Assembly (NCBI GenBank): GCA_964461255.1
Contig: CAYWTR010000015.1
Span: forward strand, 6,983-70,982
Length of the DNA stretch: 64,000 bases
Direction: 5' to 3'
From: an uncultured Fibrobacteraceae bacterium
GTDB lineage: Bacteria; Krumholzibacteriota; Krumholzibacteriia; LZORAL124-64-63
Position numbers and translations under genes: made by a program. Each line of letters begins with the position of its first letter. Within the stretch, counting starts at the first letter, position 1. The notes beneath the pieces were generated by a model, which worked only from the letters and a program-made list of their open reading frames with translations, was not told where the DNA came from and searched no databases. Positions 24,889 to 41,746 of the stretch are shown piece by piece.

Positions 24889-24934
24889 GATGCCGCATTC
24901 GGCGCAGCGCCGTCATCGCGAGGGAACGGATGGG

Positions 24935-27064: not shown

Positions 27065-30000
27065 TCAGATGGCCAGGTGCAGGTAGGTCCTGATCTCCCA
27101 TTCCCGCCCCTCGGGCAGACCCTCCGGATACAGCTCACCTTCGGCGGGCGCGGGCACGCCAGGCGGCCGGTACCGATTGGAGTGCCTGTCCAGTGTGCGG
27201 TAGGCGAAGCGGACGCCGACGCGCGTCTGCGGTAGGTCGAACCAGCGGGGCCTGCCCAAGGTGTAGGACACGTCGGCCATGGCCTGCAAGGGGTACGTCA
27301 GATTGAAATCGCGATGGTAATCGTAGGGGCCGTAGTCGTTGAACTTCAGGAAACCGGCCACGGCCACCGCGGGCCAGACGATGCGGCTGTCCCAGCCGAA
27401 ACGGCGGACCAGGCGCGTGTCGGCGCCGTTGGGCTCGGCCGTGCCCAGATAGAGGTGGCTGATCATGCGCGCTCGGTCGGTCAGCCGGTTGACCACGCGC
27501 CACTTCATCTCCCACAGGTCGCGAGCCGGGGTGCCGCCCGGGAAGGGGTACACCTGCCCTTCCGCGGAGATGAAAAGGCCCGCGTCGGCGGTGGTCTTGT
27601 GGCGCATGAACTTGAGGTCCGCGCTGAAGGCCAGACGGGCGTCCTCGCGGACGTCGCTGTCCCAGGCCCACATCCACGTGGCTGGCGTCGGATCATAGGT
27701 CACCATGATCTCGGCCGCTGTGGTCTCGCGATTGCCGCGCACCGCGAACGGATCGTCCAGGATGTTGCGCGGCCGGCCGGCCGTGCCCTCCAGCAGCTCG
27801 GGGCGGGGCATGGGCCCGACGATCGGTTTCTGCCACAGGACATTGGGTCCGACCTGCCAGTTGCCCAGCGTGACGGCCACGCCGCTCAGGGCGTTGACCT
27901 GGTTGCCCGATCCGCTGTCCTTCAGCTCCCAGCCGGTGAAGGTGGGAATGGCGGTCGGGCCGGCCTCGGCCACAAGGCCCATGTAGGCGCCCTGTCCGTA
28001 CCAGTTCCACCGCCCCGCTTGCCAGGTCAGCTTGCCCCGGAAGCCGAACGTGTCCTCGTCCTTGATCACATCCTGGCGGACGTCGGCGGGCGACAGCGGG
28101 ATCTCGGCCTTGAGGCGGTCTTCGTCTACCAGTTGGAAAGTCTCGCCGACGCGCGGACGTCCCGACCACAGCACGCCCCCCTCGAACCCGAACGGCCCCA
28201 GCGGCGCCTGCATCTGCAGCGACGCCTTGCGGGTCGACCGCACCGGGATCGCCACGGAACTGCTGAACCGGGTCTGCTGGGCGAAATCCTCCTGGAACAT
28301 GCCCGTCCAGTCGATGCCGCGCCAGGACCGGCTGTACTTGAGGAAGAGCGCGGGATTGGCCCCCCACCAGAGCTGGGGGCCTATGGCGACCTTCAGGCCG
28401 TGCAAGGCCTTCTTGCCGGCCATCTCGAAGCCCACCGGCGCCTCGCCGTTGTAGATGTCGACGTTCTCGCCGTAGTAGGCGTCGCGATAGAGCCCGAAGA
28501 AATCCCCCTCGTACTGCCAGTGCAGGTGGCCGGCGCGGTAGAACCCCTCGAGGTTGAACCAGTGGTCGTTCCAGGAAATCGACGACTGGTACACCTTCAC
28601 CCGCTCCAGCGACTCGATCTCGATGGGGTCGCCGTCGCTCCCCTCGGCCAGGCGCGGGCGGCCCCGGTTCTCGTAGAAGATCTCGTCCAGCGGATTGCGG
28701 GGCACGTGGCCCAGCACGTTCACGGAAAGCCGCGCGATGACGGCTTCGCTGGGCTTGGCCTCGAAATCGGCGTAGAACGACTGTCCGTGATCGAATCCTC
28801 GGTACGAGGGGAAGCCGGCCTGCGGCGTCTCCGCGGGCGGCGTGCTGATGTTCTTGCCGCCCGTGCTGTAGGTCTCGTACTCGAGCCGCAGCCCGGCCAA
28901 CCGCACCTTGCTCAGCGTTTCCGTCCTCAGACTGGCGGCGTCGCCGCGGGCCGCGAGCACGCCGCTCATCGGCGTGATGCGGTCGAAGTGCGCGCGGATA
29001 GCGTCGATGCCGGTGCCCGCGCCGTAAGGATCCAGGAGGAACGCCTCGCGCAGGGCGTAGTAGGCGGCGCGAGGGTAGACATGATAGAGGCCGCGGGAAT
29101 CGGAGAATCCCTTGGCGGTGATGCCCCACCACTCCTCGTTCATGTTGTTCTGGCCCTCGACGTAGTCCTCGGGATAGCCGGCGTTGGGCCACGAGGCGTT
29201 GGTGTCGTGGATGTCGAGGCGGCTCTCCTGTCCGAACTTCCACCACCCGTCGCTCCACTGGAAGATCAGGCCGCCGATCGCGTTGCCCACCCGGCCCTTG
29301 CCGGCCGATTGCTCGTAGATCTCGCGCCACTGGCCGATCAGGTAGCGCGCCTGCGTCGCCTGGTCCTCCTGCATGGTCCGGGCGTTGAACGCGTCCGCGC
29401 CGAACTCGGTGAACATCACGGGCACGCCGAGCTTGTCGTGCACGACCTGGAACAGGTCGCGCGCCGAGATGCCGCGGTAGACGTTCGTTCCGAACACATC
29501 CAGACCCGCGCACTCCTCGGCGATCAGATCGATGTACTGCACGTCGCCGTTGGCGATGGCCACCGGCCGGCGGGAATCGCGCTGTTTGATCTCGGCGATG
29601 ATCTCGCCGAAGAGCGAATAGAGGAATCGCGCCCGCGCCGCGTCGCGCTCGCCCTCGGGCAGCGCCTCGATCTCGAACGACTTCCAGGACAGGCCGTAGT
29701 TGTTCTCGTTGCCCAGCAGCCACATCAACACGCCCGGCGTGTCCCGGTAGCGCTCGACCACCTCCACCAGTTCGGCCCTGAGCAACCGCCGCACGCGGGG
29801 ATCGCTGTAGTCGGTCAGGGGGTGCCAGATCCCATCGATCGTCAGCCCGTAGCGGCCCACGAAGTGGTTGATCACCGAGTGGATGCCATAGCGGCGGTAG
29901 ATGTACTCCACCCAGCGCGGCGGCACGTCCGCGCCCTGGCGGATCGTGTTGACGCCCAGGGTCCTGAGCAGCGACATGTCCCGGTCGAGAGCATCCTTGA

Positions 30001-30259
30001 CGACGTCGTCCGGTTGCGCCCACAGGCTGTAGGTGTAGTTCTGCCCGATCGGCATGTAGTCCCAGTTCATGCCCAGGACCATGAAATCGCGGCCGTCCAC
30101 TTGCAGGCGCGACCCGCTCGCATCGGTCACCACCTCGATTCTCTGCCGCTCGCCTCCCTCCTGGGCCCGGGCCCCGATCGGCAGCGAGACCAGGAGCAGG
30201 ACCCACGCGAGGGTGGCCCAACCACCGTGCCGACGGCTGACATCACGCTTCGTGCACAC
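27065..30259 (-). CDS. Secreted clan GH-A (GH2-like TIM barrel) glycoside hydrolase fused to a large Trp-rich C-terminal beta-domain
   Basis: VLMWLLGNENNYG (acid/base NE) and VMFTEFGAD (nucleophile) resemble GH2 beta-glucuronidase motifs. GTG start at 30259 has an AAGGAG RBS and is followed by a signal peptide. Confidence 0.55.
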   Translation of the reverse strand: MCTKRDVSRRHGGWATLAWVLLLVSLPIGARAQEGGERQRIEVVTDASGSRLQVDGRDFMVLGMNWDYMPIGQNYTYSLWAQPDDVVKDALDRDMSLLRTLGVNTIRQGADVPPRWVEYIYRRYGIHSVINHFVGRYGLTIDGIWHPLTDYSDPRVRRLLRAELVEVVERYRDTPGVLMWLLGNENNYGLSWKSFEIEALPEGERDAARARFLYSLFGEIIAEIKQRDSRRPVAIANGDVQYIDLIAEECAGLDVFGTNVYRGISARDLFQVVHDKLGVPVMFTEFGADAFNARTMQEDQATQARYLIGQWREIYEQSAGKGRVGNAIGGLIFQWSDGWWKFGQESRLDIHDTNASWPNAGYPEDYVEGQNNMNEEWWGITAKGFSDSRGLYHVYPRAAYYALREAFLLDPYGAGTGIDAIRAHFDRITPMSGVLAARGDAASLRTETLSKVRLAGLRLEYETYSTGGKNISTPPAETPQAGFPSYRGFDHGQSFYADFEAKPSEAVIARLSVNVLGHVPRNPLDEIFYENRGRPRLAEGSDGDPIEIESLERVKVYQSSISWNDHWFNLEGFYRAGHLHWQYEGDFFGLYRDAYYGENVDIYNGEAPVGFEMAGKKALHGLKVAIGPQLWWGANPALFLKYSRSWRGIDWTGMFQEDFAQQTRFSSSVAIPVRSTRKASLQMQAPLGPFGFEGGVLWSGRPRVGETFQLVDEDRLKAEIPLSPADVRQDVIKDEDTFGFRGKLTWQAGRWNWYGQGAYMGLVAEAGPTAIPTFTGWELKDSGSGNQVNALSGVAVTLGNWQVGPNVLWQKPIVGPMPRPELLEGTAGRPRNILDDPFAVRGNRETTAAEIMVTYDPTPATWMWAWDSDVREDARLAFSADLKFMRHKTTADAGLFISAEGQVYPFPGGTPARDLWEMKWRVVNRLTDRARMISHLYLGTAEPNGADTRLVRRFGWDSRIVWPAVAVAGFLKFNDYGPYDYHRDFNLTYPLQAMADVSYTLGRPRWFDLPQTRVGVRFAYRTLDRHSNRYRPPGVPAPAEGELYPEGLPEGREWEIRTYLHLAI

Positions 30260-31646
30260 GGGATTCTCCTTGGCTGATCGGAATGGAGCCGTCCGCGACG
30301 GCGTTGGCGAGCGCGACTCCGCGATACCAGGACGCGCTGTCCCGGGCAAGGCGTTTCTGGCTCCGGGGGTCGACCGCGAAGAGGCCGAACTTCATGCCGA
30401 AGCCGAAGCCCCATTCGAAATTGTCCATCAGCGTCCAGACAAAGTAGCCCGCCAGGGGAACTCCTTGCTCGATGGCGCGGTGCGCGGCCAGCAAGTGTTC
30501 GCGCAGGTAGGACACGCGCCGCCGATCGGCGCTGCGGCCCGACGCGTCGACCGGGTCGTCGTAGGCGGCGCCGTTCTCCGTGACGTAGACCTTGCGCGGG
30601 CCGTAATCGCGCTGGATCCGCAGGAGGCTCTCGCACAGCCCGTCCGGGTACACCTCCCAATCCATGTCCGTGATCCGCGCCGAGTCCGCCGGCGGCACGG
30701 ACAGCGGCCGCCCGTCCGGCCCCTCGCGCATCACCGCGCGGCTGTAATAGTTGACTCCCAGGAAATCCAGGGGCCTGGAGATGGCGGCCAGATCGCCGTC
30801 ACGCACGAAGGGCAGCTCGGGCCCAACGAGGTGGCCCAGGGCGACCCGGTCGGCGATCGCGTCCGCGGGATAGACGCCCCGGAAGATCGGATCGAGATAC
30901 CAGCGATTGAACGAGCCGTCGAACCAGCGGGCGGCGTCCCGGTCCGCCTCGCTGTCGCTGGCCGGATGCGCCGGGCAATGGATCAGCACGAGGCCGACCT
31001 CTGCCCCTGGCGATGTGTCGCGCAAGACGGCGGCCGCCCCCGCGTGCGACAGCAGGAGATGGTGGCCGACGCGGAGGGCCTCGGCGGGGTCGGTGTGCCC
31101 GGGCGCGTGGCGCCCTTCCTCGTGGCCGAGGGTCGCGACGCACCAGGGTTCGTTGTGGGTCACCCAGCGGCGGATCCGATCGCCGAGCCGCCGCCCGACA
31201 ACCGCCGCGTAGTCCGCAAAGGCTTCGACCGTGTCGCGCTGTGCCCACCCCCCGCGATCCTGCAGAGCCTGCGGGAGATCCCAGTGATAGAGCGTGGGGA
31301 ATGGTTCGATGCCCGCCTGGAGCAGGCCGTCAACCAGGGCGTCGTAGAAGTCGAGGCCGGCGGGGTTCGCCCTGCCGCGCCCCTCGGGCAGGATCCGCGG
31401 CCAGGCGATCGAGAAGCGGTACCCTCCCAGGCCAAGTCCCTCGATGAGCGCGACGTCCTCGCGCCAGCGATGATAGTGGTCGCAAGCGATCTCGGGGGTC
31501 GACCCGTCGGCGACATGCCCGCGACCCGCTGCGAAGGAGTCCCAGATCGATGCCCCCCGGCCTCCCGCCCGGCAGCCGCCCTCGATCTGCTGGGCCGAGG
31601 TGGCCACACCCCAGACGAAACCCTCAGGGAATTCCCGGCGGGGCAT
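30243..31646 (-). CDS. Glycoside hydrolase family 1 beta-glucosidase
   Basis: THNEPW (acid/base) and YVTENG (nucleophile). N-terminus FPEGFVWGVATSAQQIEG. Confidence 0.85.
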   Translation of the reverse strand: MPRREFPEGFVWGVATSAQQIEGGCRAGGRGASIWDSFAAGRGHVADGSTPEIACDHYHRWREDVALIEGLGLGGYRFSIAWPRILPEGRGRANPAGLDFYDALVDGLLQAGIEPFPTLYHWDLPQALQDRGGWAQRDTVEAFADYAAVVGRRLGDRIRRWVTHNEPWCVATLGHEEGRHAPGHTDPAEALRVGHHLLLSHAGAAAVLRDTSPGAEVGLVLIHCPAHPASDSEADRDAARWFDGSFNRWYLDPIFRGVYPADAIADRVALGHLVGPELPFVRDGDLAAISRPLDFLGVNYYSRAVMREGPDGRPLSVPPADSARITDMDWEVYPDGLCESLLRIQRDYGPRKVYVTENGAAYDDPVDASGRSADRRRVSYLREHLLAAHRAIEQGVPLAGYFVWTLMDNFEWGFGFGMKFGLFAVDPRSQKRLARDSASWYRGVALANAVADGSIPISQGESRVHEA

Positions 31647-31735
31647 TTCCAGCGCCTCCCCTGGAACGGTGGTCTGCGCAACCGCCGACCGGCGGCGGAG
31701 AACCGGGAACATCGCTCGCGGCCAGAAAAAAGTCT

Positions 31736-31764
31736 TTGTTCGGACTCCGAACATAGTGTATGAT
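31736..31764 (+). promoter_or_regulatory. sigma-70-type promoter (TTGTTC-N17-TATGAT) overlapped by the perfect palindrome GTTCGGACTCCGAAC (31738-31752)
   Basis: Hexamers and 17-nt spacer read directly. The 7-1-7 palindrome covers the -35/spacer, the classic repressor-operator position. The promoter drives the 31882 gene. Confidence 0.45.
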
Positions 31765-31881
31765 ACTGGTGGCTCTGTCAAGACACGATTCACGGGCATC
31801 GCACAGAGAAGATGCGACGCCGCAAGCCGGTGCAGGGAGTTCCGATGGCAGGGTGACGGCCTGCCAAGAGAGGTGGTTGAG

Positions 31882-32856
31882 ATGCAAACCAAGGCCGCTG
31901 CTGTTCTGGCGGTTGTCGTGCTGATCGGCATGACGCCAGCGATGGGTTCGGCCCTCGCGCCCTACAGCCAGGATTTCGAGGGGCTGGCTCTGCCGTCGCC
32001 CGGCGGACTGCTCGGCGACGGCTGGCTTGTGTACGGCAACGTCTTCAGCCCGGGCGGGACGTACCTGTACGGATACGGTCCTTTCCCGGCGCCCAACGAC
32101 GGCGCCGCGTTCTGCGCCATCGCCGCCGACGAGGGAGGGGCAGAACAGGGCGCTCACCAGCTGTCCGTCTACAGCGATTACAACAACGGCGATCACGCCG
32201 CCGGCAATCTGATCGAGGCCAACGTCTTCCAGGAGCAGACGATCCTGCCCGCAGATGTCGGCAACGTCTGGATCTTCGAGTTCCAGGCCAAGCTCGGCAA
32301 CCTGGTCGCCCCCTCGACCGCCGCGGCCTTCATCAAGACGCTCGATCCCGGCGCCGGTTACGCCATGACCAATTTCATCACCGCGGACATGACGGCCATT
32401 CCCACGACCTGGTCGGGCTACTCCTTGTCGATCACGATCGATTCGAGCCTGGCGGGTCAGATCCTGCAGTTCGGATTCATGAACACGGCGACGCTCTACG
32501 TATCGTCAGGCGTCTTCTACGACAACGTGAACTTCCGCCTGAGCACGGCGACCGACGTGCCCGGGGGCGACGCCGCGCGCGGCGCGATGCTGCGCCAGAA
32601 CTATCCGAACCCGTTCAACCCGTCGACACGGATCGACTTCGCGTTGGAGAGCGCGGGGCCCGTCGAGCTGTCCGTCTTCGACGCCGGCGGCCGCAGGGTC
32701 GCCACTCTGCTGCAGCGCAACCTCGCGGCCGGCGAGCACCATGCTGTCTGGAACGGGCGGACGGACGGCGGCCGGCCCGCACCCGCGGGCCAGTACTACT
32801 ACCTCCTGGAGACGGCGACGACGCGCATCTCCCGGGGCATGGTGCTGGTGAAGTAG
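31882..32856 (+). CDS. Secreted protein of unknown function with T9SS-type C-terminal sorting domain (paralog of 38219-38926)
   Basis: Signal peptide MQTKAAAVLAVVVLIGMTPAMGSALA. Core LAPYSQDFEGLALPSPGGLLGDGWLVYGNVF... C-terminus NYPNPFNPSTRIDFAL...GQYYYLL...SRGMVLVK. Confidence 0.6.
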   Translation: MQTKAAAVLAVVVLIGMTPAMGSALAPYSQDFEGLALPSPGGLLGDGWLVYGNVFSPGGTYLYGYGPFPAPNDGAAFCAIAADEGGAEQGAHQLSVYSDYNNGDHAAGNLIEANVFQEQTILPADVGNVWIFEFQAKLGNLVAPSTAAAFIKTLDPGAGYAMTNFITADMTAIPTTWSGYSLSITIDSSLAGQILQFGFMNTATLYVSSGVFYDNVNFRLSTATDVPGGDAARGAMLRQNYPNPFNPSTRIDFALESAGPVELSVFDAGGRRVATLLQRNLAAGEHHAVWNGRTDGGRPAPAGQYYYLLETATTRISRGMVLVK

Positions 32857-32958
32857 CCGGCGCCGACACGGGGGGCCGACGGCCTCGGCCCCCCCCATCG
32901 TCCACGCCGAGAAGCGAGACGTTCATGAGACCCCGCACTCCACTCCGGACGGCAACAG

Positions 32959-35900
32959 ATGGAGGGTAGGCCGGCACCATCGCCGCTGCCGGCGCCGCTC
33001 GGCGCCGCGCCCGCATCCCCGGCGGGCGGTCTCGTCGACTTCGAGGGGGAGCCTTACTACCGGATTTCTGCCTATCAGCGGCTGGCTCCCTTCCTGGTGT
33101 GCCTGGCAAGCGACACCGATCTCTGGATGTTCGTCTCCTCCCGGGGCGGGCTCACGGCCGGCAGGGTCGACCCCGATGGCAGCCTCTTCCCCTACGAGAC
33201 CGTCGATCGGCTGCACGATGCCCACCACCACACCGGACCGGTGAGCGTGATCCGATTCGAGCGCGGCGCGAGCGCGCCCGCGACGTGGGAACCATTCTCC
33301 GAGACGGCGGCGCAGCATCCCGCCAGCGAACGGAACCTCCTCAAGAACGTCGCCGGCAATCGCCTCGTGTTCGAGGAGACCCGCCACGACCTCAAGCTCT
33401 GCTTCCGGTACTCCTGGGCCGCCTGCGACGCGTTCGGGTGGGTGCGGACAGCGGTTCTGGAGAATCGCGGCCCCTGTCCCGTCCACATCTCCCTGCTGGA
33501 CGGCCTGCGGAACGTGCTGCCCCATGGCGCGCCGCTCGCCCTGTACCAGCAGGCGTCCAACCTGGTCGACGCCTACAAGAAGGCGGAGGCGGATCCGGAG
33601 ACCGGGCTGGGCATATTCTCGCTGACGGCCGGGATCACCGACCGGGCGGAGGCGCTGGAGTGCCTCACCGCCAACGTCGCCTGGTGCTGCGGCCTTGAGC
33701 GGTTCCGGGTGCACCTGTCGCTCGCCTGCCTGGCCGACTTCCGGCAAGGGCGGATCGTCGCGGGCCAGCACGCCCTCAATGGGGCCAGGGGGAATTACCT
33801 GGTGAGCTCGCGGCTGGACCTGGACCCCGGCGAGAGCGCGCGCTGGCATCTGGTCTGCGACGCGGGCAGGGACCACGTCCAGATCGCCGCCCTGCGCCGG
33901 CGATTGATCGCGCAGGAGGACCTGCCCGCGCGGATCGACGCCGGCCTGCGGCAGGCCGCCGAGAATCTCCGGCGCTGCGTCGGCAGCGCCGATGGCATTC
34001 AGCTCTCGGGCCGTCCCGAGACCTGGAGCCATCATTTCGCGAACGTCCTCTTCAACAACATGCGCGGCGGCATCTTCTGGCGGAACCACGAGGTTCCGGT
34101 GGGCGACTTCGCCGATTTCCTCCGCACGCGCAACGCCGCCGTTGCCGCGCGGCAGGAGCGGCTGCTCGGCGAGCTGCCCGCCGTGATCGCGTCGCCCCGG
34201 CTGCGCGCCATCGCCTCCGGCAGCGGCGACGCCGACTTCGCGCGGCTGGCCCACGAATACCTCCCGCTTTACTTCGGCCGCCGTCACGGCGATCCCAGCC
34301 GGCCCTGGAACCGCTTCGCGATCCGCGTGCGCGCTCGCGACGGCGCACAGAAGCTGCACTACGAGGGCAACTGGCGGGACATCTTCCAGAACTGGGAGGC
34401 CCTCTGCGCCTCGTACCCTTGCTTTCTGCCCAACGTCGTCGCCAAGTTCGTCAACGCCTCGACGGTGGACGGCTTCAACCCGTACCACATCTCCCGCGAC
34501 GGCATCGCCTGGGAGACCGTCTCGCCGGACGACCCCTGGAGCAACATCGGGTACTGGGGCGACCACCAGATCATCTACCTGCTGAAGCTGCTCGAGGCGT
34601 TGGATCGCTACGACCCGGCGGCGCTGGACCGGATGCTCGCCGCGGAGATCTTCTGCTACGCCGACGTGCCGTACCGGATCCGACCGTACGCGGCGATCCT
34701 GCAGAACCCGCGAGCCACCATCGAGTACGACGCCGCGCGCGCCGCGCGCGTCGCCAGGCGGGTCGCGCAGCTGGGCGCCGACGGCAAGCTCCTCGGCGGC
34801 GCGGACGGAACGATCCACCACGTCAATCTGCTGGAAAAGCTGCTCGTGCCGGCCCTGTCCAAACTGTCGAACCTGATCCCCGGCGCCGGCATCTGGATGA
34901 ACACCCAGCGGCCGGAGTGGAACGACGCGAACAACGCGCTCGGCGGGGGCGGCGTGTCGGTGGTCACGCTCTGCTACTTGCGCCGCTACCTGGCCTTCCT
35001 CGCCGTCCGGCTGCAGGCCGCCGGCGATGCGTCGCTGCCCCTGTCCAGCGAGGTGGCCGACTGGTTCGCCGGGGTCGAGGCGGCGCTGGAGCGCGAGCGG
35101 GGAGCGTTGCGCGCCGGCGTCTACGACCCGCGCGACCGCAAGAGGCTGATGGATCTGCTGGGCGGCGCTTTCGATGCGTACCGGGAAGCGGTGTACGCGC
35201 GCGGCTTCTCGGGGCGGAAGCTCCTGCCGGTCGCGCGGGTGGTGCGACTGTGCCGCACGGGGCTGGCGCACCTGGACCACGCGATCGGCGCCAACCAGCG
35301 CGACGATGGCCTCTACCATGGCTACAACCTGCTGGAGATATCCGCGGACGGCAGCCGGGCCGGCCTGGGTCGCCTGCCGCTGATGCTCGAGGGGCAGGTG
35401 GCCGCCCTCAGCTCGGGAGCGCTCACGGCCGAGCAGTCGCTGGCTGTCCTGGAGCGTCTCTTCGCCAGCGCGCTCTACCGGCCCGATCAACGCTCCTTCT
35501 TGCTCTACCCCGAGCGGTCGCTGCCGGGCTTCCTGGCCAAGAACGTCGTGCCGGACGAGCCCGCCGCCGCTATCCCCCTGCTGCGAGACATGTTGGCGGC
35601 GGGGGATTCGACCGTGCTGGCGCGTGACATCGACGGCGTGATCCGCTTCGCCGGGCATCTGCGAAACGCCCGCGATCTCGCGGTCCTGCTGGAAGACCTC
35701 GAGCGGCGATCAGAATGGTCGGCCGCCGTCGCGCGGGACCGCGGCGCCGTGCTCGATCTGTTCGAGCAAGTCTTCCGCCACAGGTCCTACACCGGGCGCT
35801 CCGGCGTGATGCACGCCTACGAAGGCCTCGGTTGTATCTACTGGCACATGGTCGCGAAGCTGCTGCTCGCGGCTCAGGAGGCCGCGCTGCGCGCCGAGCG

Positions 35901-36450
35901 GGAGGGCGCGCCCGCCTCGGTCCGCGACGGCCTGAAGGCCGTCTACTTCCGGATCCGCGCCGGTCTGGGCCACGAAAAGACGGTGGCCGAGTACGGCGCC
36001 TTCCCCACCGACCCCCACTCGCACACGCCGCCCGGAGGCGGGGCGCAGCAGCCGGGCATGACCGGGCAGGTGAAGGAAGAGATTCTCACCCGCCTGGGCG
36101 AGCTCGGGGTCTGCGTCGAGAGCGGAACGCTGCGGCTGAGGCCCTGCCTCTTGCGTGAGGACGAGCTGCTCGAGCGGCCCGCCGAGTTCCGGTATTACGA
36201 TGTCGGTGGCCACGCGCGGGCGCTCGCTCTGCCCAGCGGCAGCCTGGCCTTCACCTTCTGCCAGGTGCCGGTGGTCTACGCGCGCGCCGCCGCAGCGGCA
36301 AGCATGAAGATCGTCCGTGCCGACGGGAGCGAAGAGGAACGCCCCGGCGACACGCTCGACGCCCGCTGGAGCGCGGAGCTGTTCGCGCGCAGCGGGGCGA
36401 TCGATCGCATCGAGGTCAAGGTCTCGCCGCACGGCATCGACCCCGTCTAG
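32959..36450 (+). CDS. Large cytoplasmic GH94-like glycoside phosphorylase candidate, possibly a beta-glucan phosphorylase of GH94/GH149/GH161 type
   Basis: 1163 aa with no signal peptide. RPEWNDANNALGG resembles the GH94 general-acid GDWND motif. NWRDIFQNWEAL is typical of (alpha/alpha)6-barrel phosphorylases. Size fits GH149/GH161. Confidence 0.45.
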   Translation: MEGRPAPSPLPAPLGAAPASPAGGLVDFEGEPYYRISAYQRLAPFLVCLASDTDLWMFVSSRGGLTAGRVDPDGSLFPYETVDRLHDAHHHTGPVSVIRFERGASAPATWEPFSETAAQHPASERNLLKNVAGNRLVFEETRHDLKLCFRYSWAACDAFGWVRTAVLENRGPCPVHISLLDGLRNVLPHGAPLALYQQASNLVDAYKKAEADPETGLGIFSLTAGITDRAEALECLTANVAWCCGLERFRVHLSLACLADFRQGRIVAGQHALNGARGNYLVSSRLDLDPGESARWHLVCDAGRDHVQIAALRRRLIAQEDLPARIDAGLRQAAENLRRCVGSADGIQLSGRPETWSHHFANVLFNNMRGGIFWRNHEVPVGDFADFLRTRNAAVAARQERLLGELPAVIASPRLRAIASGSGDADFARLAHEYLPLYFGRRHGDPSRPWNRFAIRVRARDGAQKLHYEGNWRDIFQNWEALCASYPCFLPNVVAKFVNASTVDGFNPYHISRDGIAWETVSPDDPWSNIGYWGDHQIIYLLKLLEALDRYDPAALDRMLAAEIFCYADVPYRIRPYAAILQNPRATIEYDAARAARVARRVAQLGADGKLLGGADGTIHHVNLLEKLLVPALSKLSNLIPGAGIWMNTQRPEWNDANNALGGGGVSVVTLCYLRRYLAFLAVRLQAAGDASLPLSSEVADWFAGVEAALERERGALRAGVYDPRDRKRLMDLLGGAFDAYREAVYARGFSGRKLLPVARVVRLCRTGLAHLDHAIGANQRDDGLYHGYNLLEISADGSRAGLGRLPLMLEGQVAALSSGALTAEQSLAVLERLFASALYRPDQRSFLLYPERSLPGFLAKNVVPDEPAAAIPLLRDMLAAGDSTVLARDIDGVIRFAGHLRNARDLAVLLEDLERRSEWSAAVARDRGAVLDLFEQVFRHRSYTGRSGVMHAYEGLGCIYWHMVAKLLLAAQEAALRAEREGAPASVRDGLKAVYFRIRAGLGHEKTVAEYGAFPTDPHSHTPPGGGAQQPGMTGQVKEEILTRLGELGVCVESGTLRLRPCLLREDELLERPAEFRYYDVGGHARALALPSGSLAFTFCQVPVVYARAAAAASMKIVRADGSEEERPGDTLDARWSAELFARSGAIDRIEVKVSPHGIDPV

Positions 36451-36500
36451 CCGGCGAGCGCCCCTGGTTCGAAACACCGCCAGTCGCACAGGAGTCGATC

Positions 36501-38111
36501 ATGAAGCCGATATCCCTCCCGCCGGCGGCCGCTCTCGCCCTGGCCTTCCTCGCTCTGAGCAGCGCAGAGGCCCCGGGGCAATGCATCCTCGCCAATCCCA
36601 GCTTCGAAATCGTCGGTTCGGGAGGAACCGTTTTCGGCGGCTGGTCTCAGTTCGGAGCCATCGGCGCGGTCACGACGGCCGTCCACGGGGCCAGAGCGGC
36701 GCGCGTCAGCGGTCCGAACCAGGGCGGTTGGGATGTCTCGGGTTACTGGCAGCCGCTGGACTGCGTCCCTGGGGAGCGGTGGGCGGTCACGGGCCACGTG
36801 CGCCATCCCGGGAGCAAGCCTCTGACAGGCCAGTGCATCGCCCTGGTCAACCTCGAGTGGCGCGATGCCGGCGGCAACTTGATCAGCTACGATTCCCACA
36901 CCGTCGCCGACGCCTCCACGCCGACGGACACGTACCTGGATTTCTCGTTCGTGAGCGCCGCGGCGCCCGCGGGGACCGTCAAGACGCGGCTCCTGCTCGG
37001 CGTCCTGCAGAGCCCGGCCGATCCGTCGCCTGATGTGCACTTCGACCAGATCACATGCCACAGCACGACGCCGCCGACCATCGACGACATACAGTGGATG
37101 GATTTCCCCGGGGGCACCACTCTCGTCTTCGGCGGCAGGACCTGGCGCGTCAAGGGCCCCGGCTACTACGGTCCCGGCGGCAACCTGTTCAGCAACGCCG
37201 CCAGCAGCGTCTGGGTCGACGCGAGCGCCCGGTTGCACCTGACGCTCAAGAGGATCGGCGGTTCGTGGTACAGCACCGAGGTGGTCGTCGAGCAGCCGCT
37301 GGGCTACGGAGACTACATCGTGACCACCGTCGGCCGACTGGACCAGCTCGATCCCCAGGCGGTGCTGGGCCTGTTCCTGTGGCAGTATGGCGATTGCTGG
37401 GACGAAGGCTACCTGTGGTGGAACGCCTTCAACGAGGTCGATATCGAATACAGCCGCTGGGGCAACCCTGCCGCGGACATCGGGCAGTTCGTCGCCCAGC
37501 CCTATGATTACCCGGGCAACATCCGGCGCTTCGCCGCCACCTTCGGGGACGACGAATTGACCAGCCACGCCATGCGTTGGCTGCCCGATCGCGTCGAGTA
37601 CCGCGTCTGGCGCGGCGGGCCCGGCGACGAATCGCCGGCGACCACGGTCAGCGCCTGGACCTACGCCGGCCCGCACATCCCACGCCCCGAGCAGCCCCGA
37701 CTGCACCTGAACCTGTGGAAGCTCGGCGGCACGCCGGCCGCGGACCAGGAAGTGATCTTCCAGAACTTCACCTTCGTTCCGGAGGGTCTGACCGCCGTGG
37801 CGGCGCAGCAGAGCCCCGCCTCTCCCGCGACCCCGGCCGGCCGTCTGCACCCGGCGGCGCCGAATCCGTTCAATCCCTCGACCACGGCCCGCTTCGATCT
37901 GATCCGCGGCGGCCGCTTTCGGCTTGCGGTCTACGACTTGGGGGGAGGCATCGTGCGGACTCTCGCCAGCGGCGACCTGCCCGCCGGCAGCCATTCGGCC
38001 AGGTGGGACGGGCGGGACGACCATGGCCGCCCTCTGCCCTCGGGAGTGTACATCCTGCGGTTGCAAGGCAGCGATTTCAGCGACAGCCGGCCGGTCGTGC
38101 TGACGAAGTGA
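36501..38111 (+). CDS. Secreted CBM4/9-like plus GH16-like (concanavalin-type) beta-glucanase with T9SS-type C-terminal sorting domain
   Basis: Signal peptide. N-terminal ANPSFE...GWSQ CBM-like module. NEVDIEYSRWG (ExDxE). C-terminus NPFNPSTTARFDL...GVYILRL...RPVVLTK. Confidence 0.55.
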   Translation: MKPISLPPAAALALAFLALSSAEAPGQCILANPSFEIVGSGGTVFGGWSQFGAIGAVTTAVHGARAARVSGPNQGGWDVSGYWQPLDCVPGERWAVTGHVRHPGSKPLTGQCIALVNLEWRDAGGNLISYDSHTVADASTPTDTYLDFSFVSAAAPAGTVKTRLLLGVLQSPADPSPDVHFDQITCHSTTPPTIDDIQWMDFPGGTTLVFGGRTWRVKGPGYYGPGGNLFSNAASSVWVDASARLHLTLKRIGGSWYSTEVVVEQPLGYGDYIVTTVGRLDQLDPQAVLGLFLWQYGDCWDEGYLWWNAFNEVDIEYSRWGNPAADIGQFVAQPYDYPGNIRRFAATFGDDELTSHAMRWLPDRVEYRVWRGGPGDESPATTVSAWTYAGPHIPRPEQPRLHLNLWKLGGTPAADQEVIFQNFTFVPEGLTAVAAQQSPASPATPAGRLHPAAPNPFNPSTTARFDLIRGGRFRLAVYDLGGGIVRTLASGDLPAGSHSARWDGRDDHGRPLPSGVYILRLQGSDFSDSRPVVLTK

Positions 38112-38218
38112 GCCGACGGCCGGTCGCCCCAGGCGCGCCGGCCGCCGCGTGCACGAGCCGATATAGGGAAGGGCCGCCTCCCTGACGGAAGACGGCCCTT
38201 GATTTGGGTCACTCCATA

Positions 38219-38926
38219 TCAGCGGAACAGCGACTTCACGCCGCCCCAGGAGCTTTCCTCGCTCGGCACCGGTGTGCCGGTGTAGAACTGCACGTCGTCG
38301 TAGAAGACGCCCGACGGCTCGTACAGCCGCGCGTGGCTGACGAATCCGAATTGCAGGATCTGGCCCACGAGGCCAGCGTCGATCGTGATCGTCAACGTGT
38401 GCGCCGACCAGGTCGTGGGGATGGTCGTCATGTCGGCGGTGATGTAGTTGGTCATGGCGTAGCCGGCGCCGGGATCCAGGGTCTTGATGAAGGCCGCGGC
38501 GGTCGTGCTCCCGGCCAGGTTGCCGAGCTTGGCCTGGAAGCTGTAGGTCCAGGTCTCGCCGACATCTTCAGCGGTGACGATTTGCTCCTGGAAGACGTTG
38601 GACTCGATGATGCCGTCGGCGTGGTTGCCGTTGTTGTAATCGCTGTAGACGGACAGGCATTGCCCGCCGATGCCTTCGCCGGCGACGATCGCGCAGAACG
38701 CGGCGCCATCGTTGGGGGCCGGGAACGGGCCGTAGCCGTACCACCAACCCCAGTCGTACCCGAAGACGTTGCCGTACACCAGCCAGCCGTCGCCGAGCAA
38801 CCCGCCCGGCGATGGCAGAGGCAGGCTCTCGAAGTCCTGCCCATAGGGCGCCAGCGCCTGGCTCGCCGCGGGCAGCAGGCAGACCAGCATGGCGGCCCCG
38901 AGGATGGAAGCGGTTCGTGCACGCAT
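38219..38926 (-). CDS. Secreted paralog of the 31882 protein, ending in the short SWGGVKSLFR tail instead of a T9SS domain
   Basis: Signal peptide MRARTASILGAAMLVCLLPAASQALA. The core is about 65% identical to 31882-32856. C-terminus ...TGTPVPSEESSWGGVKSLFR. Confidence 0.6.
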   Translation of the reverse strand: MRARTASILGAAMLVCLLPAASQALAPYGQDFESLPLPSPGGLLGDGWLVYGNVFGYDWGWWYGYGPFPAPNDGAAFCAIVAGEGIGGQCLSVYSDYNNGNHADGIIESNVFQEQIVTAEDVGETWTYSFQAKLGNLAGSTTAAAFIKTLDPGAGYAMTNYITADMTTIPTTWSAHTLTITIDAGLVGQILQFGFVSHARLYEPSGVFYDDVQFYTGTPVPSEESSWGGVKSLFR

Positions 38927-39039
38927 CTCTCGACCTTTCTGCGAGGGGTTCCCGCTTGCTCTCGGAACGCCCGAAACGATCGCGGTCCGGTTGGCAAGTC
39001 GCTCCAAAGTTGATTCTCTGTCGTATATCATAGACTATG

Positions 39040-39099
39040 TTCGGTCACCGAATCAAGTCAAAAATGCCGCTTGACCGGATTCGGATCCGGAGATACTTT
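39040..39099. promoter_or_regulatory. Divergent control region with nested inverted repeats: TTCGGTCACCGAA (39040-39052) and CCGAATCAAGTCAA/TTGACCGGATTCGG (39048-39084), overlapping a TTGACC-N17-TACTTT promoter
   Basis: Palindromes read directly. They share the TTCGG-N3-CCGAA half-site arrangement with the operator at 31738-31752. Confidence 0.4.
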
Positions 39100-39174
39100 G
39101 TTCGGGTTTCGTACAAAGAAATTCTCCTCAGCGGGCGATCCTCCGAACCTGGAGGCGGCAAACGAGATGGCACG

Positions 39175-40665
39175 GTGAGCGCCGCCGCGCAGTCCATCAC
39201 GGCCCCCGAGGACCGCATCAAGCTGACCCACAAGCTCGCCTACGGGGCGGGAGCGTTCGTCAACAATCTGCTGGCCGCCGCCAGCGGCGGCATGATGATC
39301 GTCCTGAACCTCGGGCTGGGACTCAACCCGGCTACCGTGGGCCTGCTCGGCGCGCTGCCGCGTTTGACCGACGCGATCACCGACCCCCTCATGGGTTTCA
39401 TTTCCGACCAGACCCGCAGCAAGTGGGGACGACGGCGACCGTACATCTTCGGCGGCGCCATCGCCGCGGGGTTGATCTTCGCGCTGCTGTGGCAGCTCCC
39501 CCGCGGCCAGAGCGAGACCTTCTATTTCGTCTACTTCCTCGTCGGCTCGATTCTCTTCTATGCGGGCTACACGGTCTTCGCCACGCCGTGGGTGGCGCTG
39601 GGCTACGAGCTGACGCCCGACTACAACGAGCGCACGCGCTTGATGGGCGCCCAGAACTTCATCGGTCAGCTTGCCTATGTCGCCTCTCCCTGGTTCCTCT
39701 GGATCATGACCTACGAGGGGTTCTTCCCCGATCAGGTGGCGGGGGCGGCGGCACTGGCGATCGTCGTCGCGCTGGTGGCCGCCGGTCTGGGGATCGTGCC
39801 GGCGATCTTCCTGCGCGAACGCATGCAAAACATCGCCGCGGCCGGAGTGGCGGCCGCCAAGCAGCGCGCGACGACGAGGGACAGTGGTGGCCTTGCCCGC
39901 AACATCAAGGCATTCAGCCGGGGCTTCGGCGTCACGCTCTCCTCCGGCCCCTTCCTCAAGCTCTGTCTGGCGACTTTCCTCGTTTTCAATGGCTTCATGC
40001 TCATATCATCGTTCCAGTACTATGTGATCATCTACTACGTGTGCGGCGGCGTGCAGGTCACCGGCGCCAAGTACGCTGGATACGCGGGGACGGTGGGAGG
40101 CCTCAGCACCTTCGCCGTCGTCGCGTTCGTCGCCTGGCTCGCCACGCGGATCGGCAAGCGTCGCGCCTTCTTCTTCTCCACCGGGGTGTCCATCGTCGGC
40201 TACGCGCTCAAGTGGATCTGCTACAACCCGTCCTACCCGTTGCTGTCCGTCCTGCCGGCGCCTCTGCTGGCTTTCAGCCTGGGCGGTCTGTTCACGCTCA
40301 TGCCGTCAATGGTCGCCGACGTCGTGGACACGGACGAACTCAAGACCCACCAGCGCCGCGAGGGGATGTTCGGGTCGATCTTCTGGTTCATGGTGAAGCT
40401 CGGTATGTCCGCCGCCCTGGCCGGCGGCGGCTATCTGCTCAACGCGACCGGCTTCGACGTGGCGCTGGGAGGGGAGCAGTCCGGCCGGACGATCATGCTG
40501 ATGCGGCTCTGCGACGCGGGCATTCCCATCCTGACCTCGATCATCGCCATCTGGGCGGTGGCGACCTTCCCCATCACCGAAAAGAGAGCCAATGAGGTCC
40601 GCAGGGAGCTGGAGCGCCGCCGGGGCAGGCCAGAGGCCGCGCTGGCATCACCAGCCGAGCCCTAG
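39175..40665 (+). CDS. MFS transporter, glycoside-pentoside-hexuronide (GPH):cation symporter family
   Basis: GPH signature DQTRSKWGRRRPYIFGG and 12 predicted TM segments. Start is uncertain: GTG at 39175 was chosen, while the ORF opens at 39037 inside the regulatory palindromes. Confidence 0.7.
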   Translation: MSAAAQSITAPEDRIKLTHKLAYGAGAFVNNLLAAASGGMMIVLNLGLGLNPATVGLLGALPRLTDAITDPLMGFISDQTRSKWGRRRPYIFGGAIAAGLIFALLWQLPRGQSETFYFVYFLVGSILFYAGYTVFATPWVALGYELTPDYNERTRLMGAQNFIGQLAYVASPWFLWIMTYEGFFPDQVAGAAALAIVVALVAAGLGIVPAIFLRERMQNIAAAGVAAAKQRATTRDSGGLARNIKAFSRGFGVTLSSGPFLKLCLATFLVFNGFMLISSFQYYVIIYYVCGGVQVTGAKYAGYAGTVGGLSTFAVVAFVAWLATRIGKRRAFFFSTGVSIVGYALKWICYNPSYPLLSVLPAPLLAFSLGGLFTLMPSMVADVVDTDELKTHQRREGMFGSIFWFMVKLGMSAALAGGGYLLNATGFDVALGGEQSGRTIMLMRLCDAGIPILTSIIAIWAVATFPITEKRANEVRRELERRRGRPEAALASPAEP

Positions 40666-40699: not shown

Positions 40700-41746
40700 A
40701 TGCCGCGCCTCCGGCGCGTCGCGCCGGCGGCCGCCCTGCTCGCCCTCACCTGCCTGGCGGCGGGCTGCGCGGGCGGGCGAGACAGCCCCTCTTCCTCCCC
40801 GGAGGCCGCCATGGTCATCCGCCCTTTCCACGCCGGCAGCGCGGAACGCTGGCTCGGCAACGCCATCTGTTACGGCCCCCACCGCGACGGCCAGCACCCG
40901 GGCGGCCCCGCCCCCTCCGCCGCGCAGGTGCGCGAGGATCTGCGCTTGATGTCGCCCCGCTGGAGCCTGCTGCGCCTCTACGGATCGGCCGAGGTCGCCC
41001 CGACCGTCCTGTCGGTGATCCGTGCGGACAGCCTGGACATGAAGGTGATGCTCGGGGCGTGGATCGCCGTCGAGGAGGAACGCGACGATCGCGGCGCCGT
41101 CGTGGCGAGACATCCCGAAGAGGCCACCGCCAATCGGCGGGAGGTCGACGCCGCGATTCTTCTGGCGAACGACTATGCCGACATCGTGGTCGCCGTCTGC
41201 GTGGGCAACGAAACCCAGGTCTCCTGGTCGCCCCATCGCAGCCCGCTCGCTGTCCTGATCGGGCATCTGCGGCGCGTGCGGGCGGGCGTGTCGGTGCCGG
41301 TCACATCGGCCGACGACTTCCAGTACTGGCTCCTACCCGAAAGCCGAGCGCTGGCCCGCGAGGTCGACTTCATCACGCTCCACGCCCATCCCATGTGGAA
41401 CGGCCGGCAACTGGCGGAGGCACTGCCCTGGCTGCAGGACCAGGTCGCCGCCGTGCAGGCCGTCCACCCCGGGGCGACCATGGTGCTCGGCGAAACGGGC
41501 TGGGCGACCTCCGTCTCCGCGGCGGGCGAGCAGGCGGCGCTGATCAAGGGACGCCCGGGAGAGGCGGAGCAGGAGATCTACTATCGCGCCGTCGTCTCCT
41601 GGATCGAGGCGGTGCGGCTGACCTGCTTCTTCTTCGAAGCCTTCGACGAGAACTGGAAGGGCGGCCCGGATCCGGCGGAGGTCGAGAAGCACTGGGGCCT
41701 GTTTCGCGCCGATCGCTCGCCGAAGCTCGCTCTGTTGCCGCGTTAG
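40700..41746 (+). CDS. Glycoside hydrolase family 17-like beta-1,3-glucanase/transglycosylase, lipoprotein
   Basis: Lipobox LTCLAAGCAG. Catalytic motifs VGNE (proton donor) and GETGWAT (nucleophile), characteristic of GH17. Confidence 0.65.
   Translation: MPRLRRVAPAAALLALTCLAAGCAGGRDSPSSSPEAAMVIRPFHAGSAERWLGNAICYGPHRDGQHPGGPAPSAAQVREDLRLMSPRWSLLRLYGSAEVAPTVLSVIRADSLDMKVMLGAWIAVEEERDDRGAVVARHPEEATANRREVDAAILLANDYADIVVAVCVGNETQVSWSPHRSPLAVLIGHLRRVRAGVSVPVTSADDFQYWLLPESRALAREVDFITLHAHPMWNGRQLAEALPWLQDQVAAVQAVHPGATMVLGETGWATSVSAAGEQAALIKGRPGEAEQEIYYRAVVSWIEAVRLTCFFFEAFDENWKGGPDPAEVEKHWGLFRADRSPKLALLPR

What the first reader, a model, noticed from the sequence alone, without database searches (positions are those of the whole stretch)
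31738..39084. Shared palindromic operator TTCGG-N3-CCGAA upstream of two glucan-locus promoters
GTTCGGACTCCGAAC (31738-31752) overlaps the -35/spacer of a TTGTTC-N17-TATGAT promoter. TTCGGTCACCGAA plus the nested 14-bp inverted repeat (39040-39084) overlaps the TTGACC-N17-TACTTT promoter of the GPH transporter. This is a probable regulon operator for the ROK regulator or an unlinked repressor.
Basis: seen in the sequence. Interest (0 to 1): 0.55.

Follow-up and report, generated by a model that had tools for sequence, protein, structure and literature searches.

The report
ROK repressor operators of a beta-glucan locus
The two short palindromes are the cores of a 23-base operator that occurs four times in this beta-1,3-glucan (laminarin) utilisation locus and is conserved across several uncultured phyla; it is most likely bound by the locus's own ROK-family sugar repressor, so it is a well-supported but ordinary kind of gene switch.

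Summary
TTCGG-N3-CCGAA occurs exactly twice in 64 kb, against 0.07 expected. It is the core of a longer 10-3-10 palindrome, CTTTGTTCGG-N3-CCGAACAAAG. That 23-mer has four copies with at most 3 mismatches (0.00 expected); the next-best match has 6. All four lie in the three promoter regions of an 18-kb laminarin locus: lipoprotein-ROK-GH16, GH1-GH2-like, secreted protein-GH149 phosphorylase-secreted protein, a secreted paralog, and GPH transporter-GH17.

The motif recurs beside ROK orthologs in about 70 of 80 genomes (Krumholzibacteriota, Eisenbacteria, Gemmatimonadota, Zixibacteria). A DNA-only metagenome scan returned 120 loci, and 105 carry the same glucan genes beside the site.

The operator sits at a fixed distance from TTGAC -35 boxes and overlaps the -10/start or -35/spacer, which indicates repression. 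Its geometry fits ROK operators: 23 bp, TT/AA at ±5,6, and C/G at ±11 paired with a GGRR linker. The recognition helix co-varies with the motif.

Site 2's strongest promoter points leftward to the secreted paralog.

Binding and the effector are untested. This is a new member of a known kind.

The parts
23419..23441 (.). Operator O-rok, CTTTGATCGGTTTCCGCACAAAG (2 mismatches to consensus). It is the autoregulatory site of the lipoprotein-ROK-GH16 operon.
   Evidence: An orthologous site lies upstream of the lipo475-ROK operon in about 70 loci.
23392..23420 (+). Predicted promoter of the ROK operon: TTGACA (23392-97), N17, GATGCT (23415-20). The operator starts inside the -10 hexamer.
   Evidence: Direct reading. 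The layout cTTGACA-N17-cataCTTTG is conserved in 46 or more loci, and the spacing statistics are.
23503..24888 (+). Uncharacterised lipoprotein (461 aa), the first gene of the ROK operon.
   Evidence: RBS, GTG start and lipobox seen. No Pfam, NCBIfam or PDB hit. It always precedes ROK.
24890..26206 (+). ROK-family regulator with an N-terminal winged HTH and a ROK sugar-binding domain. It is the proposed cognate repressor.
   Evidence: Pfam ROK 8.7e-52 plus HTH hits. Full-length match to the Mlc/NagC-like repressors 1z05, 3bp8 and 1z6r. Helix LSRSTVSE and linker GGRRP are conserved.
26203..27012 (+). GH16 laminarinase-type glycoside hydrolase with a lipoprotein signal. It overlaps the ROK stop codon by 4 nt.
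   Evidence: Pfam Glyco_hydro_16 4.5e-25.
27065..30349 (-). 1094-aa protein with a GH2-type TIM-barrel segment, downstream of GH1 in the leftward operon. The start codon is uncertain.
   Evidence: Pfam Glyco_hydro_2_C at residues 118-329. It is syntenic with GH1 in most loci.
30243..31646 (-). GH1 beta-glucosidase.
   Evidence: Pfam Glyco_hydro_1 9.2e-151.
31734..31756 (.). Operator O-gh1/secA, CTTTGTTCGGACTCCGAACATAG (1 mismatch).
   Evidence: The sequence is nearly invariant in 24 genome loci and dozens of metagenome loci.
31736..31764 (+). Rightward promoter for the secreted protein-GH149 operon: TTGTTC, N17, TATGAT. The -35 and spacer lie inside the operator.
   Evidence: Direct reading. 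A TATGAT-like hexamer starts exactly 2 nt after the operator in 70 sites.
31753..31781 (-). Leftward promoter for GH1: TTGACA (31781-31776), N17, CACTAT (31758-31753). The -10 overlaps the right end of the operator.
   Evidence: A conserved tgtcaag lies 19 nt from the operator in all GH1/secA loci. TTGAC spacing of 19-22 nt is seen in 192 of 233 sites.
31882..32856 (+). Secreted protein (324 aa) with a FlgD_ig / T9SS-type C-terminal domain. It is a paralog of the gene at 38219-38926.
32959..36450 (+). GH149 beta-1,3-glucan phosphorylase.
   Evidence: NCBIfam NF058639 at 1436.8 bits, above the 1150 cut-off. PDB 6hq6 with E=0.
36501..38111 (+). Secreted 536-aa protein with a FlgD_ig tail, last gene of the rightward operon.
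   Evidence: synteny.
38219..38926 (-). Secreted paralog (235 aa) without the C-terminal tail.
   Evidence: shared APY[SG]QDFE..GDGWLVYGNVF sequence. tblastn finds secB-type genes beside the same site type.
39035..39057 (.). Operator O-secB, CTATGTTCGGTCACCGAATCAAG (3 mismatches).
   Evidence: The same non-consensus bases are conserved in L031, L035, L069, L155 and L175.
39027..39056 (-). Leftward promoter of the paralog: TTGATT (39056-51), spacer 18, TATGAT (39032-27).
   Evidence: Promoter scan.
39010..39038 (+). Possible distal rightward promoter: TTGATT (39010-15), N17, GACTAT (39033-38). It has the same 19-nt spacing to the operator as the GH1 promoter.
   Evidence: Direct reading, by analogy with site 1. 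This part is inferred only.
39071..39099 (+). Proximal GPH promoter: TTGACC, N17, TACTTT.
   Evidence: Direct reading. The TTGAC box is 19 nt from the operator, the commonest spacing class.
39096..39118 (.). Operator O-gph, CTTTGTTCGGGTTTCGTACAAAG (2 mismatches).
   Evidence: An identical 23-mer lies upstream of GPH in L155 and L191.
39175..40665 (+). GPH/MFS_2 sugar:cation symporter.
   Evidence: Pfam MFS_2 2.8e-61; TIGR00792 gph.
40700..41746 (+). GH17-like glucan hydrolase with a lipoprotein signal. The start is inferred at Met37 of ORF 40592.
   Evidence: Pfam Glyco_hydro_17 3.9e-08. Homolog alignments start at residue 38.

Best explanation
The palindromes are the cores of four 23-bp operators with consensus CTTTGTTCGG-N3-CCGAACAAAG. 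A dimer of the ROK-family repressor encoded at 24890-26206 most likely binds them.

Each operator is built into a core promoter in one of two ways. In one layout it starts inside the -10 hexamer and covers the transcription start; this is seen at the ROK operon, the GPH transporter and GH1. In the other it spans the -35 and spacer just upstream of a TATGAT -10; this is seen at the two paralogous secreted-protein genes.

Bound ROK would therefore block RNA polymerase at five transcription units. Together these make up a beta-1,3-glucan (laminarin) utilisation locus:
- lipoprotein-ROK-GH16
- GH1-GH2-like
- secreted protein-GH149 phosphorylase-secreted protein
- the secreted paralog
- GPH transporter-GH17

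One operator at 31734-56 serves two back-to-back promoters. A sugar derived from glucan breakdown (glucose or laminaribiose/oligosaccharide) is expected to release the repressor, by analogy with T. maritima BglR.

Shown here: motif, copy number, positions, conservation, promoter phasing, gene content and family-typical geometry. Inferred: that ROK is the binding protein, that it represses, and the identity of the effector.
For: 1. Statistics. Four sites with at most 3 mismatches against 0.00 expected, a clean gap to the next hit at 6 mismatches, and all four intergenic.

2. Independent test in genomes. The window-derived consensus gives 118 hits in 1.24 Mb around 80 ROK orthologs, against 0 in 5 shuffles. 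The hits lie upstream of the lipo475-ROK operon, in GH1/secA divergent regions, upstream of GPH, and in Gemmatimonadota upstream of the GH2-like gene, GH3 and the divergent TonB-receptor/ROK region.

3. Gene-blind test. A metagenome scan with the degenerate 23-mer returned 120 loci, and 105 have the same glucan genes within 1.5 kb. Four of the 15 misses were checked by Pfam: two are hits inside coding regions (uvrC, terminase) and two have no annotatable neighbour.

4. Promoter phasing. In 192 of 233 unique sites a TTGAC box lies 19-22 nt from the operator edge, and 70 have a TATGAT-like box exactly 2 nt beyond the other edge.

5. ROK-typical anatomy. Published ROK operators are 23-bp palindromes (PMC3553997). 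NagC/Mlc operators keep TT/AA at ±5,6 and extend to ±11, and the GGRR linker goes with C/G at ±11 (PMC4288165). Here the consensus has TT/AA at ±5,6. C/G at ±11 holds in 71 and 72 of 73 unique sites. The protein has a GGRRP linker.

6. Co-variation. All motif-bearing orthologs keep the helix LSRSTVSE. Planctomycetota and Polyangia homologs (LSRSSISA, LSPSTVSA) sit beside GH16/GH149 genes but lack the motif.

7. No other regulator gene lies in the locus.
Against: - There is no binding, footprint, TSS or expression data. Promoters are consensus readings, and the tool's strict sigma-70 scan flags only the minus-strand secB promoter.
- Loci were collected by ROK homology, so co-occurrence with ROK is partly by construction. 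The metagenome scan only partly removes this bias, because ROK is part of the same conserved locus.
- Loss of the motif in Planctomycetota and Polyangia could reflect phylogenetic distance rather than helix changes.
- The autoregulatory class deviates from TT/AA at ±5,6 (A6 and T17).
- ROK proteins such as NagC can also activate.
Confidence: 0.8

Rival explanations
1. The 23-bp palindrome is a genuine operator of this glucan regulon, but it is bound by a different transcription factor encoded elsewhere in the genome, not by the linked ROK protein.
For: Only 64 kb of this genome is visible, so an unlinked regulator cannot be excluded. Loci L001-L080 were selected through ROK, so linkage is partly built in.
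Against: - The site precedes the ROK-containing operon in essentially every locus whose upstream DNA is present.
- The 23-bp length, TT/AA at ±5,6 and C/G at ±11 with a GGRR linker are ROK hallmarks.
- The motif disappears where the ROK helix changes although the glucan genes remain.
Confidence: 0.1
2. ROK binds these sites but acts as an activator or dual regulator at some of them, for example at the promoters where the site covers the -35/spacer.
For: NagC is known to be a dual regulator (own knowledge). The TTGTTC -35 inside the operator is weak, so it might need help.
Against: Every site overlaps -35/spacer or -10/start elements rather than lying upstream of -35. That is the classical position for repression. 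The Thermotoga ROK regulators of sugar loci were characterised as sugar-released DNA binders.
Confidence: 0.07
3. The palindromes act as RNA or DNA hairpins (terminator or attenuator) rather than as protein-binding sites.
For: The scan flagged site 1 on the minus strand as terminator-like: a 7-bp stem followed by AAGACTTTTT.
Against: - Among 125 distinct 23-mers, 206 departures from the consensus are one-sided and break pairing, 7 more are one-sided G-T changes, and only 1 change is compensatory.
- The commonest class has A6·A18 and T7·T17 mismatches.
- The other three window sites have no T-run.
- The predicted starts fall inside the palindrome, so it would not be fully transcribed.
- Rfam finds nothing.
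Confidence: 0.02
4. The resemblance of the two sites the reader saw is only the residue of a duplication that produced the two paralogous secreted-protein genes together with their promoters. There is no shared regulator.
For: Sites 1 and 2 are mirror images that share CCGAACATAGTnTATGATA, and each precedes one paralog.
Against: Sites 3 and 4 precede non-paralogous genes. The motif is conserved across phyla while the flanking DNA is not, and it is found beside different glucan genes in Gemmatimonadota.
Confidence: 0.01

Closest known systems
NagC / Mlc operators of Escherichia coli (ROK-family repressors)
   Same: - A 23-bp quasi-palindrome reaching ±11, with TT/AA at ±5,6.
- C/G at ±11 goes with a GGRR linker, as in NagC.
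- The regulator has an N-terminal winged HTH plus a ROK domain and matches the Mlc structures over its full length at about 150 bits.
- The operators overlap core promoters of sugar uptake and catabolism genes.
   Different: - The sequence is different (CTTTGTTCGG half-site).
- The protein scores far below the NagC and Mlc equivalog cut-offs (203 against 650 bits and 174 against 530).
- The targets are beta-1,3-glucan genes, not GlcNAc or PTS-glucose genes.
- The hosts are uncultured FCB-group phyla.
BglR (TM0032) laminarin/beta-glucoside regulon of Thermotoga maritima
   Same: - A ROK repressor encoded within, and autoregulating, a locus with a GH16-type laminarinase, a beta-glucosidase and an oligosaccharide transporter.
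- A 23-bp palindromic operator.
- DNA binding released by glucose and cellobiose in vitro (PMC3553997).
   Different: - The operator sequence is unrelated (AATTTCTTTCTGAGGAAGATAGA).
- BglR uses an ABC transporter and one operon. Here there are a GPH symporter, a GH149 phosphorylase and five transcription units with four operators.
- Orthology was not tested.
XylR (ROK) operators of Bacillus and Thermotoga
   Same: Palindromic ROK operators overlapping promoters, and a NagC-like SsGGRr/k linker.
   Different: They belong to a xylose regulon, and their A/T-rich half-sites differ from CTTTGTTCGG.

Membership tests
ROK-family repressor operator (NagC/Mlc/XylR/BglR type) | A palindromic site about 23 bp long with 10-3-10 geometry reaching ±11 | tested here: met
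   Consensus CTTTGTTCGG-N3-CCGAACAAAG. Positions 1-5 and 18-23 carry the highest information and positions 11-13 carry none.
ROK-family repressor operator (NagC/Mlc/XylR/BglR type) | TT at -6,-5 and AA at +5,+6 around the centre | tested here: met
   The consensus has T6 T7 and A17 A18, and A18 is invariant (73 of 73). T6 holds in 48, T7 in 58 and A17 in 47 of 73 unique sites. The autoregulatory class carries A6 and T17 instead.
ROK-family repressor operator (NagC/Mlc/XylR/BglR type) | C/G at ±11 when the regulator's linker is GGRR (NagC rule) | tested here: met
   C1 in 71 of 73 and G23 in 72 of 73 unique sites. The linker is GGRRP in the window protein and in most orthologs.
ROK-family repressor operator (NagC/Mlc/XylR/BglR type) | A cognate regulator with a winged HTH plus ROK domain, encoded in the regulated locus and preceded by its own site | tested here: met
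   Pfam ROK plus HTH. A site lies upstream of the lipo475-ROK operon in the window and in about 70 loci.
ROK-family repressor operator (NagC/Mlc/XylR/BglR type) | The operator overlaps core promoter elements | tested here: met
   TTGAC lies 19-22 nt from the operator edge in 192 of 233 sites, and a TATGAT-like box lies 2 nt past the other edge in 70. The promoters themselves are predictions.
ROK-family repressor operator (NagC/Mlc/XylR/BglR type) | Direct, sequence-specific binding of the ROK protein, relieved by a sugar effector | not testable with these tools
   This needs EMSA or footprinting with purified protein, with and without glucose, laminaribiose or laminari-oligosaccharides.
NagC or Mlc orthologue | Score above the NCBIfam equivalog cut-off | tested here: not met
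   NagC 203.2 bits against a cut-off of 650; Mlc 174 bits against 530. Same family, not an orthologue.
Intrinsic terminator / RNA hairpin | A stem maintained by compensatory changes and followed by a U-tract | tested here: not met
   206 pair-breaking one-sided changes against 1 compensatory change. A T-run follows only site 1, on the minus strand. No Rfam hit.
beta-1,3-glucan (laminarin) utilisation locus | Presence of beta-1,3-glucan-specific enzymes | tested here: met
   GH149 phosphorylase above the equivalog cut-off and matching PDB 6hq6; GH16, GH17, GH1 and a GPH transporter.

The most novel reading that the evidence does not exclude
The locus, its ROK repressor and an almost unchanged 23-bp operator may form a self-contained, SusC/D-independent 'laminarin island' shared across several FCB-group phyla (Krumholzibacteriota, Eisenbacteria, Gemmatimonadota, Zixibacteria). 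It could be spread or preserved as a unit. Within it, a compact bidirectional promoter-operator cassette, in which one ROK site silences two back-to-back promoters, has been duplicated together with its cargo gene. On this reading the uncharacterised lipoprotein and the GH2-like 1094-aa protein that always accompany the locus would be new components of beta-glucan capture in these uncultured phyla.
Probability: 0.3. Interest if true: 0.5.

Novelty: new member of a known kind. Interest (0 to 1): 0.35.

Why it matters
The result gives a concrete, testable regulatory model for laminarin use in phyla that have no cultured, genetically tractable members. Laminarin is one of the most abundant marine and soil polysaccharides.

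The model comprises a defined operator sequence, four sites, five transcription units and a candidate repressor. The consensus can be used to annotate beta-glucan regulons in MAGs, and it flags two conserved proteins of unknown function as glucan-related.

It also extends the NagC rule (GGRR linker paired with C/G at ±11) to a distant branch of the ROK family. It does not change what is known about how ROK repressors work.

Tried and rejected
- **13-mer with 2 mismatches.** Not enriched (26 found, 35 expected), so the short motif was abandoned in favour of the 23-mer.
- **Pairwise MAFFT of the two upstream regions.** It aligned site 1 to the third site rather than to site 2. This revealed the third site, but the alignment is otherwise uninformative.
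- **Strict sigma-70 scan.** They are kept only because their hexamers are conserved in phase across loci.
- **Alternative shared palindrome in Planctomycetota and Polyangia ROK loci.** Only scattered, inconsistent candidates appeared (L075 9641, L079 8624), so no motif was claimed.
- **Hairpin or terminator reading.** Rejected.
- **Regulon extension from metagenome hits without known neighbours.** Of the four loci examined, L188 lies inside uvrC and L183 inside a phage terminase, so both are chance hits. L159 and L170 have no annotatable neighbour apart from an alpha-amylase-domain ORF about 1.8 kb from the site in L170.
- **Annotation of neighbouring proteins.** Sequence searches of the lipoprotein, the secreted paralog and the GH2-like protein against PDB, Pfam and NCBIfam gave nothing useful.
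- **Literature searches.** Searches for the motif string, for GH149 with ROK, and for Krumholzibacteriota with laminarin found no prior description.
Full report
**1. Observation**

TTCGGNNNCCGAA has exactly two matches in the 64-kb window, against 0.07 expected. Relaxed to two mismatches it is not enriched, with 26 found and 35 expected. The 13-mer is therefore only part of the signal.

Aligning the two upstream regions and reading them directly showed longer symmetry, CTTTGTTCGG-N3-CCGAACAAAG, a 10-3-10 palindrome of 23 bp. A scan with this consensus finds four sites with at most 3 of 20 mismatches:
- 23419-41 (2 mismatches)
- 31734-56 (1 mismatch)
- 39035-57 (3 mismatches)
- 39096-118 (2 mismatches)

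The next-best position in the window has 6 mismatches. The tool's dinucleotide shuffles expect 0.00 such sites. All four are intergenic.

**2. Context**

The window has about 70% G+C. The genes around the sites form a beta-1,3-glucan utilisation locus:
- an uncharacterised lipoprotein (23503-24888)
- a ROK regulator with a winged HTH (24890-26206)
- GH16 (26203-27012)
- on the minus strand, a 1094-aa GH2-like protein and GH1 (27065-31646)
- a secreted FlgD_ig-tailed protein (31882-32856)
- a GH149 beta-1,3-glucan phosphorylase (32959-36450; NCBIfam 1436.8 bits against a cut-off of 1150; PDB 6hq6)
- a secreted 536-aa protein
- a paralog of the secreted protein on the minus strand (38219-38926)
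- a GPH symporter (39175-40665)
- GH17

The four sites occupy the only three promoter-bearing intergenic regions of this 18-kb block. These are upstream of the lipoprotein-ROK-GH16 operon, between divergent GH1 and the secreted protein, and (two sites) between the divergent paralog and GPH.

**3. Independent comparative test**

ROK orthologs were fetched from species-representative genomes: 80 loci at 48-82% identity, from MAGs labelled Krumholzibacteriota, Eisenbacteria, Gemmatimonadota and Zixibacteria, and at about 50% identity from Planctomycetota and Polyangia.

The window-derived 23-mer, with at most 4 mismatches, hits these 1.24 Mb 118 times, against 0 in five shuffles. tblastn mapping of the window's proteins and stacked site contexts show where the hits fall:
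- upstream of the lipoprotein-ROK operon: 46 loci of the plain type, plus loci where GPH or the secreted paralog is divergent from it
- in the GH1/secreted-protein divergent region: 24 loci, with CTTTGTTCGGACTCCGAACATAG nearly invariant
- upstream of GPH
- in Gemmatimonadota, upstream of the GH2-like gene, of a GH3 beta-glucosidase and in the divergent TonB-dependent receptor/ROK region

Three of the four ROK loci above 60% identity that lack a site are truncated just upstream of the lipoprotein gene (L017, L019, L042). In the fourth, L026, ROK has no adjacent lipoprotein gene.

A gene-blind scan of the metagenome collection used CTTTGWTCGGNNNCCGWACAWAG. Of these, 105 have homologs of the window's glucan genes within 1.5 kb of the site. 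Four of the 15 remaining loci were examined by Pfam. Two are chance hits inside coding regions (uvrC, phage terminase) and two have no annotatable neighbour; most of the rest are short contigs.

**4. Anatomy and mechanism**

Across 233 unique sites, 192 have a TTGAC box 19-22 nt from one edge of the operator. Seventy have a TATGAT-like box starting exactly 2 nt past the other edge. This defines two layouts.

*Layout I.* The pattern is cTTGACA-N17-cataCTTTG…, where the operator begins inside the -10 and covers the start site. In the window this applies to three promoters:
- the ROK operon: TTGACA 23392-97, GATGCT 23415-20
- GPH: TTGACC 39071-76, TACTTT 39094-99
- GH1 on the minus strand: TTGACA 31781-76, CACTAT 31758-53

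*Layout II.* The operator spans the -35 and spacer just upstream of TATGAT. This applies to two promoters:
- the secreted protein: TTGTTC 31736-41, TATGAT 31759-64
- its paralog on the minus strand: TTGATT 39056-51, TATGAT 39032-27. This is the only promoter in these regions that the strict scan flags.

Site 1 therefore lies under two back-to-back promoters. Site 2 is its mirror image, duplicated along with the paralog. The conserved departures from perfect symmetry (CTATG, AATCAAG) coincide with promoter hexamers and recur in L031, L035, L069, L155 and L175. Overlap with core elements at every site indicates repression by occlusion. These promoters are consensus readings supported by conservation, not mapped starts.

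**5. Which protein**

Published ROK regulators bind 23-bp palindromes (PMC3553997). NagC/Mlc operators reach ±11 with TT/AA at ±5,6 as the only invariant bases. The NagC linker GGRR goes with C/G at ±11 and the Mlc linker RGRP with A/T (PMC4288165).

Here the consensus has TT/AA at ±5,6. Positions ±11 are C and G in 71 and 72 of 73 unique sites. The linked ROK protein has GGRRP. It aligns over its full length with the Mlc/NagC-like repressors 1z05, 3bp8 and 1z6r, but it is not a NagC or Mlc orthologue because it falls below both equivalog cut-offs.

All motif-bearing orthologs keep the recognition helix LSRSTVSE. Planctomycetota (LSRSSISA) and Polyangia (LSPSTVSA) homologs lack the motif, although the former still sit beside GH16 and GH149 genes. 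No other regulator gene is present in the locus. ROK as the binder is thus a strong inference, not a demonstration.

The effector is inferred from T. maritima BglR, a ROK repressor of a laminarin/beta-glucoside operon released by glucose and cellobiose.

**6. Rivals**

A hairpin or terminator reading was raised by the scan at site 1. It fails for three reasons. Among 125 distinct 23-mers, 206 departures from the consensus are one-sided and break pairing, against one compensatory change. The other sites lack T-runs. Rfam finds nothing.

A pure duplication remnant explains sites 1 and 2 but not sites 3 and 4, and not the cross-phylum conservation. An unlinked regulator and an activating role remain possible at low probability.

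**7. Novelty**

Searches of the paper library for the motif string, for GH149 with ROK, for ROK with laminarin and Gemmatimonadota, and for Krumholzibacteriota with laminarin found no description of this regulon.

It is a new member of a well-known kind, a locally autoregulated ROK sugar regulon. Its notable details are the single operator shared by divergent promoters, the duplicated promoter-operator cassette and the cross-phylum conservation of the motif. Interest is modest at 0.35.

Noticed in passing
window 23503-24888 (+): A 461-aa lipoprotein with no Pfam, NCBIfam or PDB relative is always the first gene of the ROK operon across Krumholzibacteriota, Eisenbacteria and Gemmatimonadota. 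In Gemmatimonadota and Zixibacteria it is followed by one to several shorter copies that match its C-terminal ~150 aa. It may be a glucan-binding surface protein.
   Followed up: partly
window 27065-30349 (-): In this 1094-aa protein only residues ~118-329 match a GH2 TIM barrel. The remaining ~750 aa are unannotated and there is no PDB relative by sequence. It is conserved next to GH1 in nearly all loci and has its own operator in Gemmatimonadota.
   Followed up: partly
window 31882-32856 (+) and 38219-38926 (-): These are paralogous secreted proteins of unknown function with a shared N-terminal ~220 aa. Each sits behind its own copy of the TATGAT promoter/operator module. Only the first carries the FlgD_ig / T9SS-type C-terminal domain.
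   Followed up: partly
window 19521-23129 (-), 31882-32856 (+), 36501-38111 (+): Several secreted proteins end in a FlgD_ig / Por_Secre_tail-like domain (…NPFNP…Y.L.…). This suggests T9SS-type export in this organism.
   Followed up: no
It may simply reflect divergent promoters.
   Followed up: partly
L075 9641-9663; L079 8624-8648: Diverged palindromes lie upstream of the Planctomycetota and Polyangia ROK homologs: CTTCGTTCGGCCACAGAACGAAC and ..TAGTTCGAGTCGTGAACAAAC. They may be the altered operators of these homologs with a changed helix, but no consistent motif was found.
   Followed up: partly
L063 4665-7934 (-) and 10939-13173 (-): In a Gemmatimonadaceae MAG one operator lies between the ROK gene and a divergent TonB-dependent receptor gene, and another lies upstream of a GH3 beta-glucosidase instead of GH1. 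This suggests non-orthologous replacement within the same regulon.
   Followed up: partly
window 41782-44562 (-): A 926-aa protein resembling an ADP-forming acyl-CoA synthetase fused to a C-terminal acetyltransferase-like region lies just downstream of the glucan locus. This rests on reading the translation only. There is no operator nearby.
   Followed up: no
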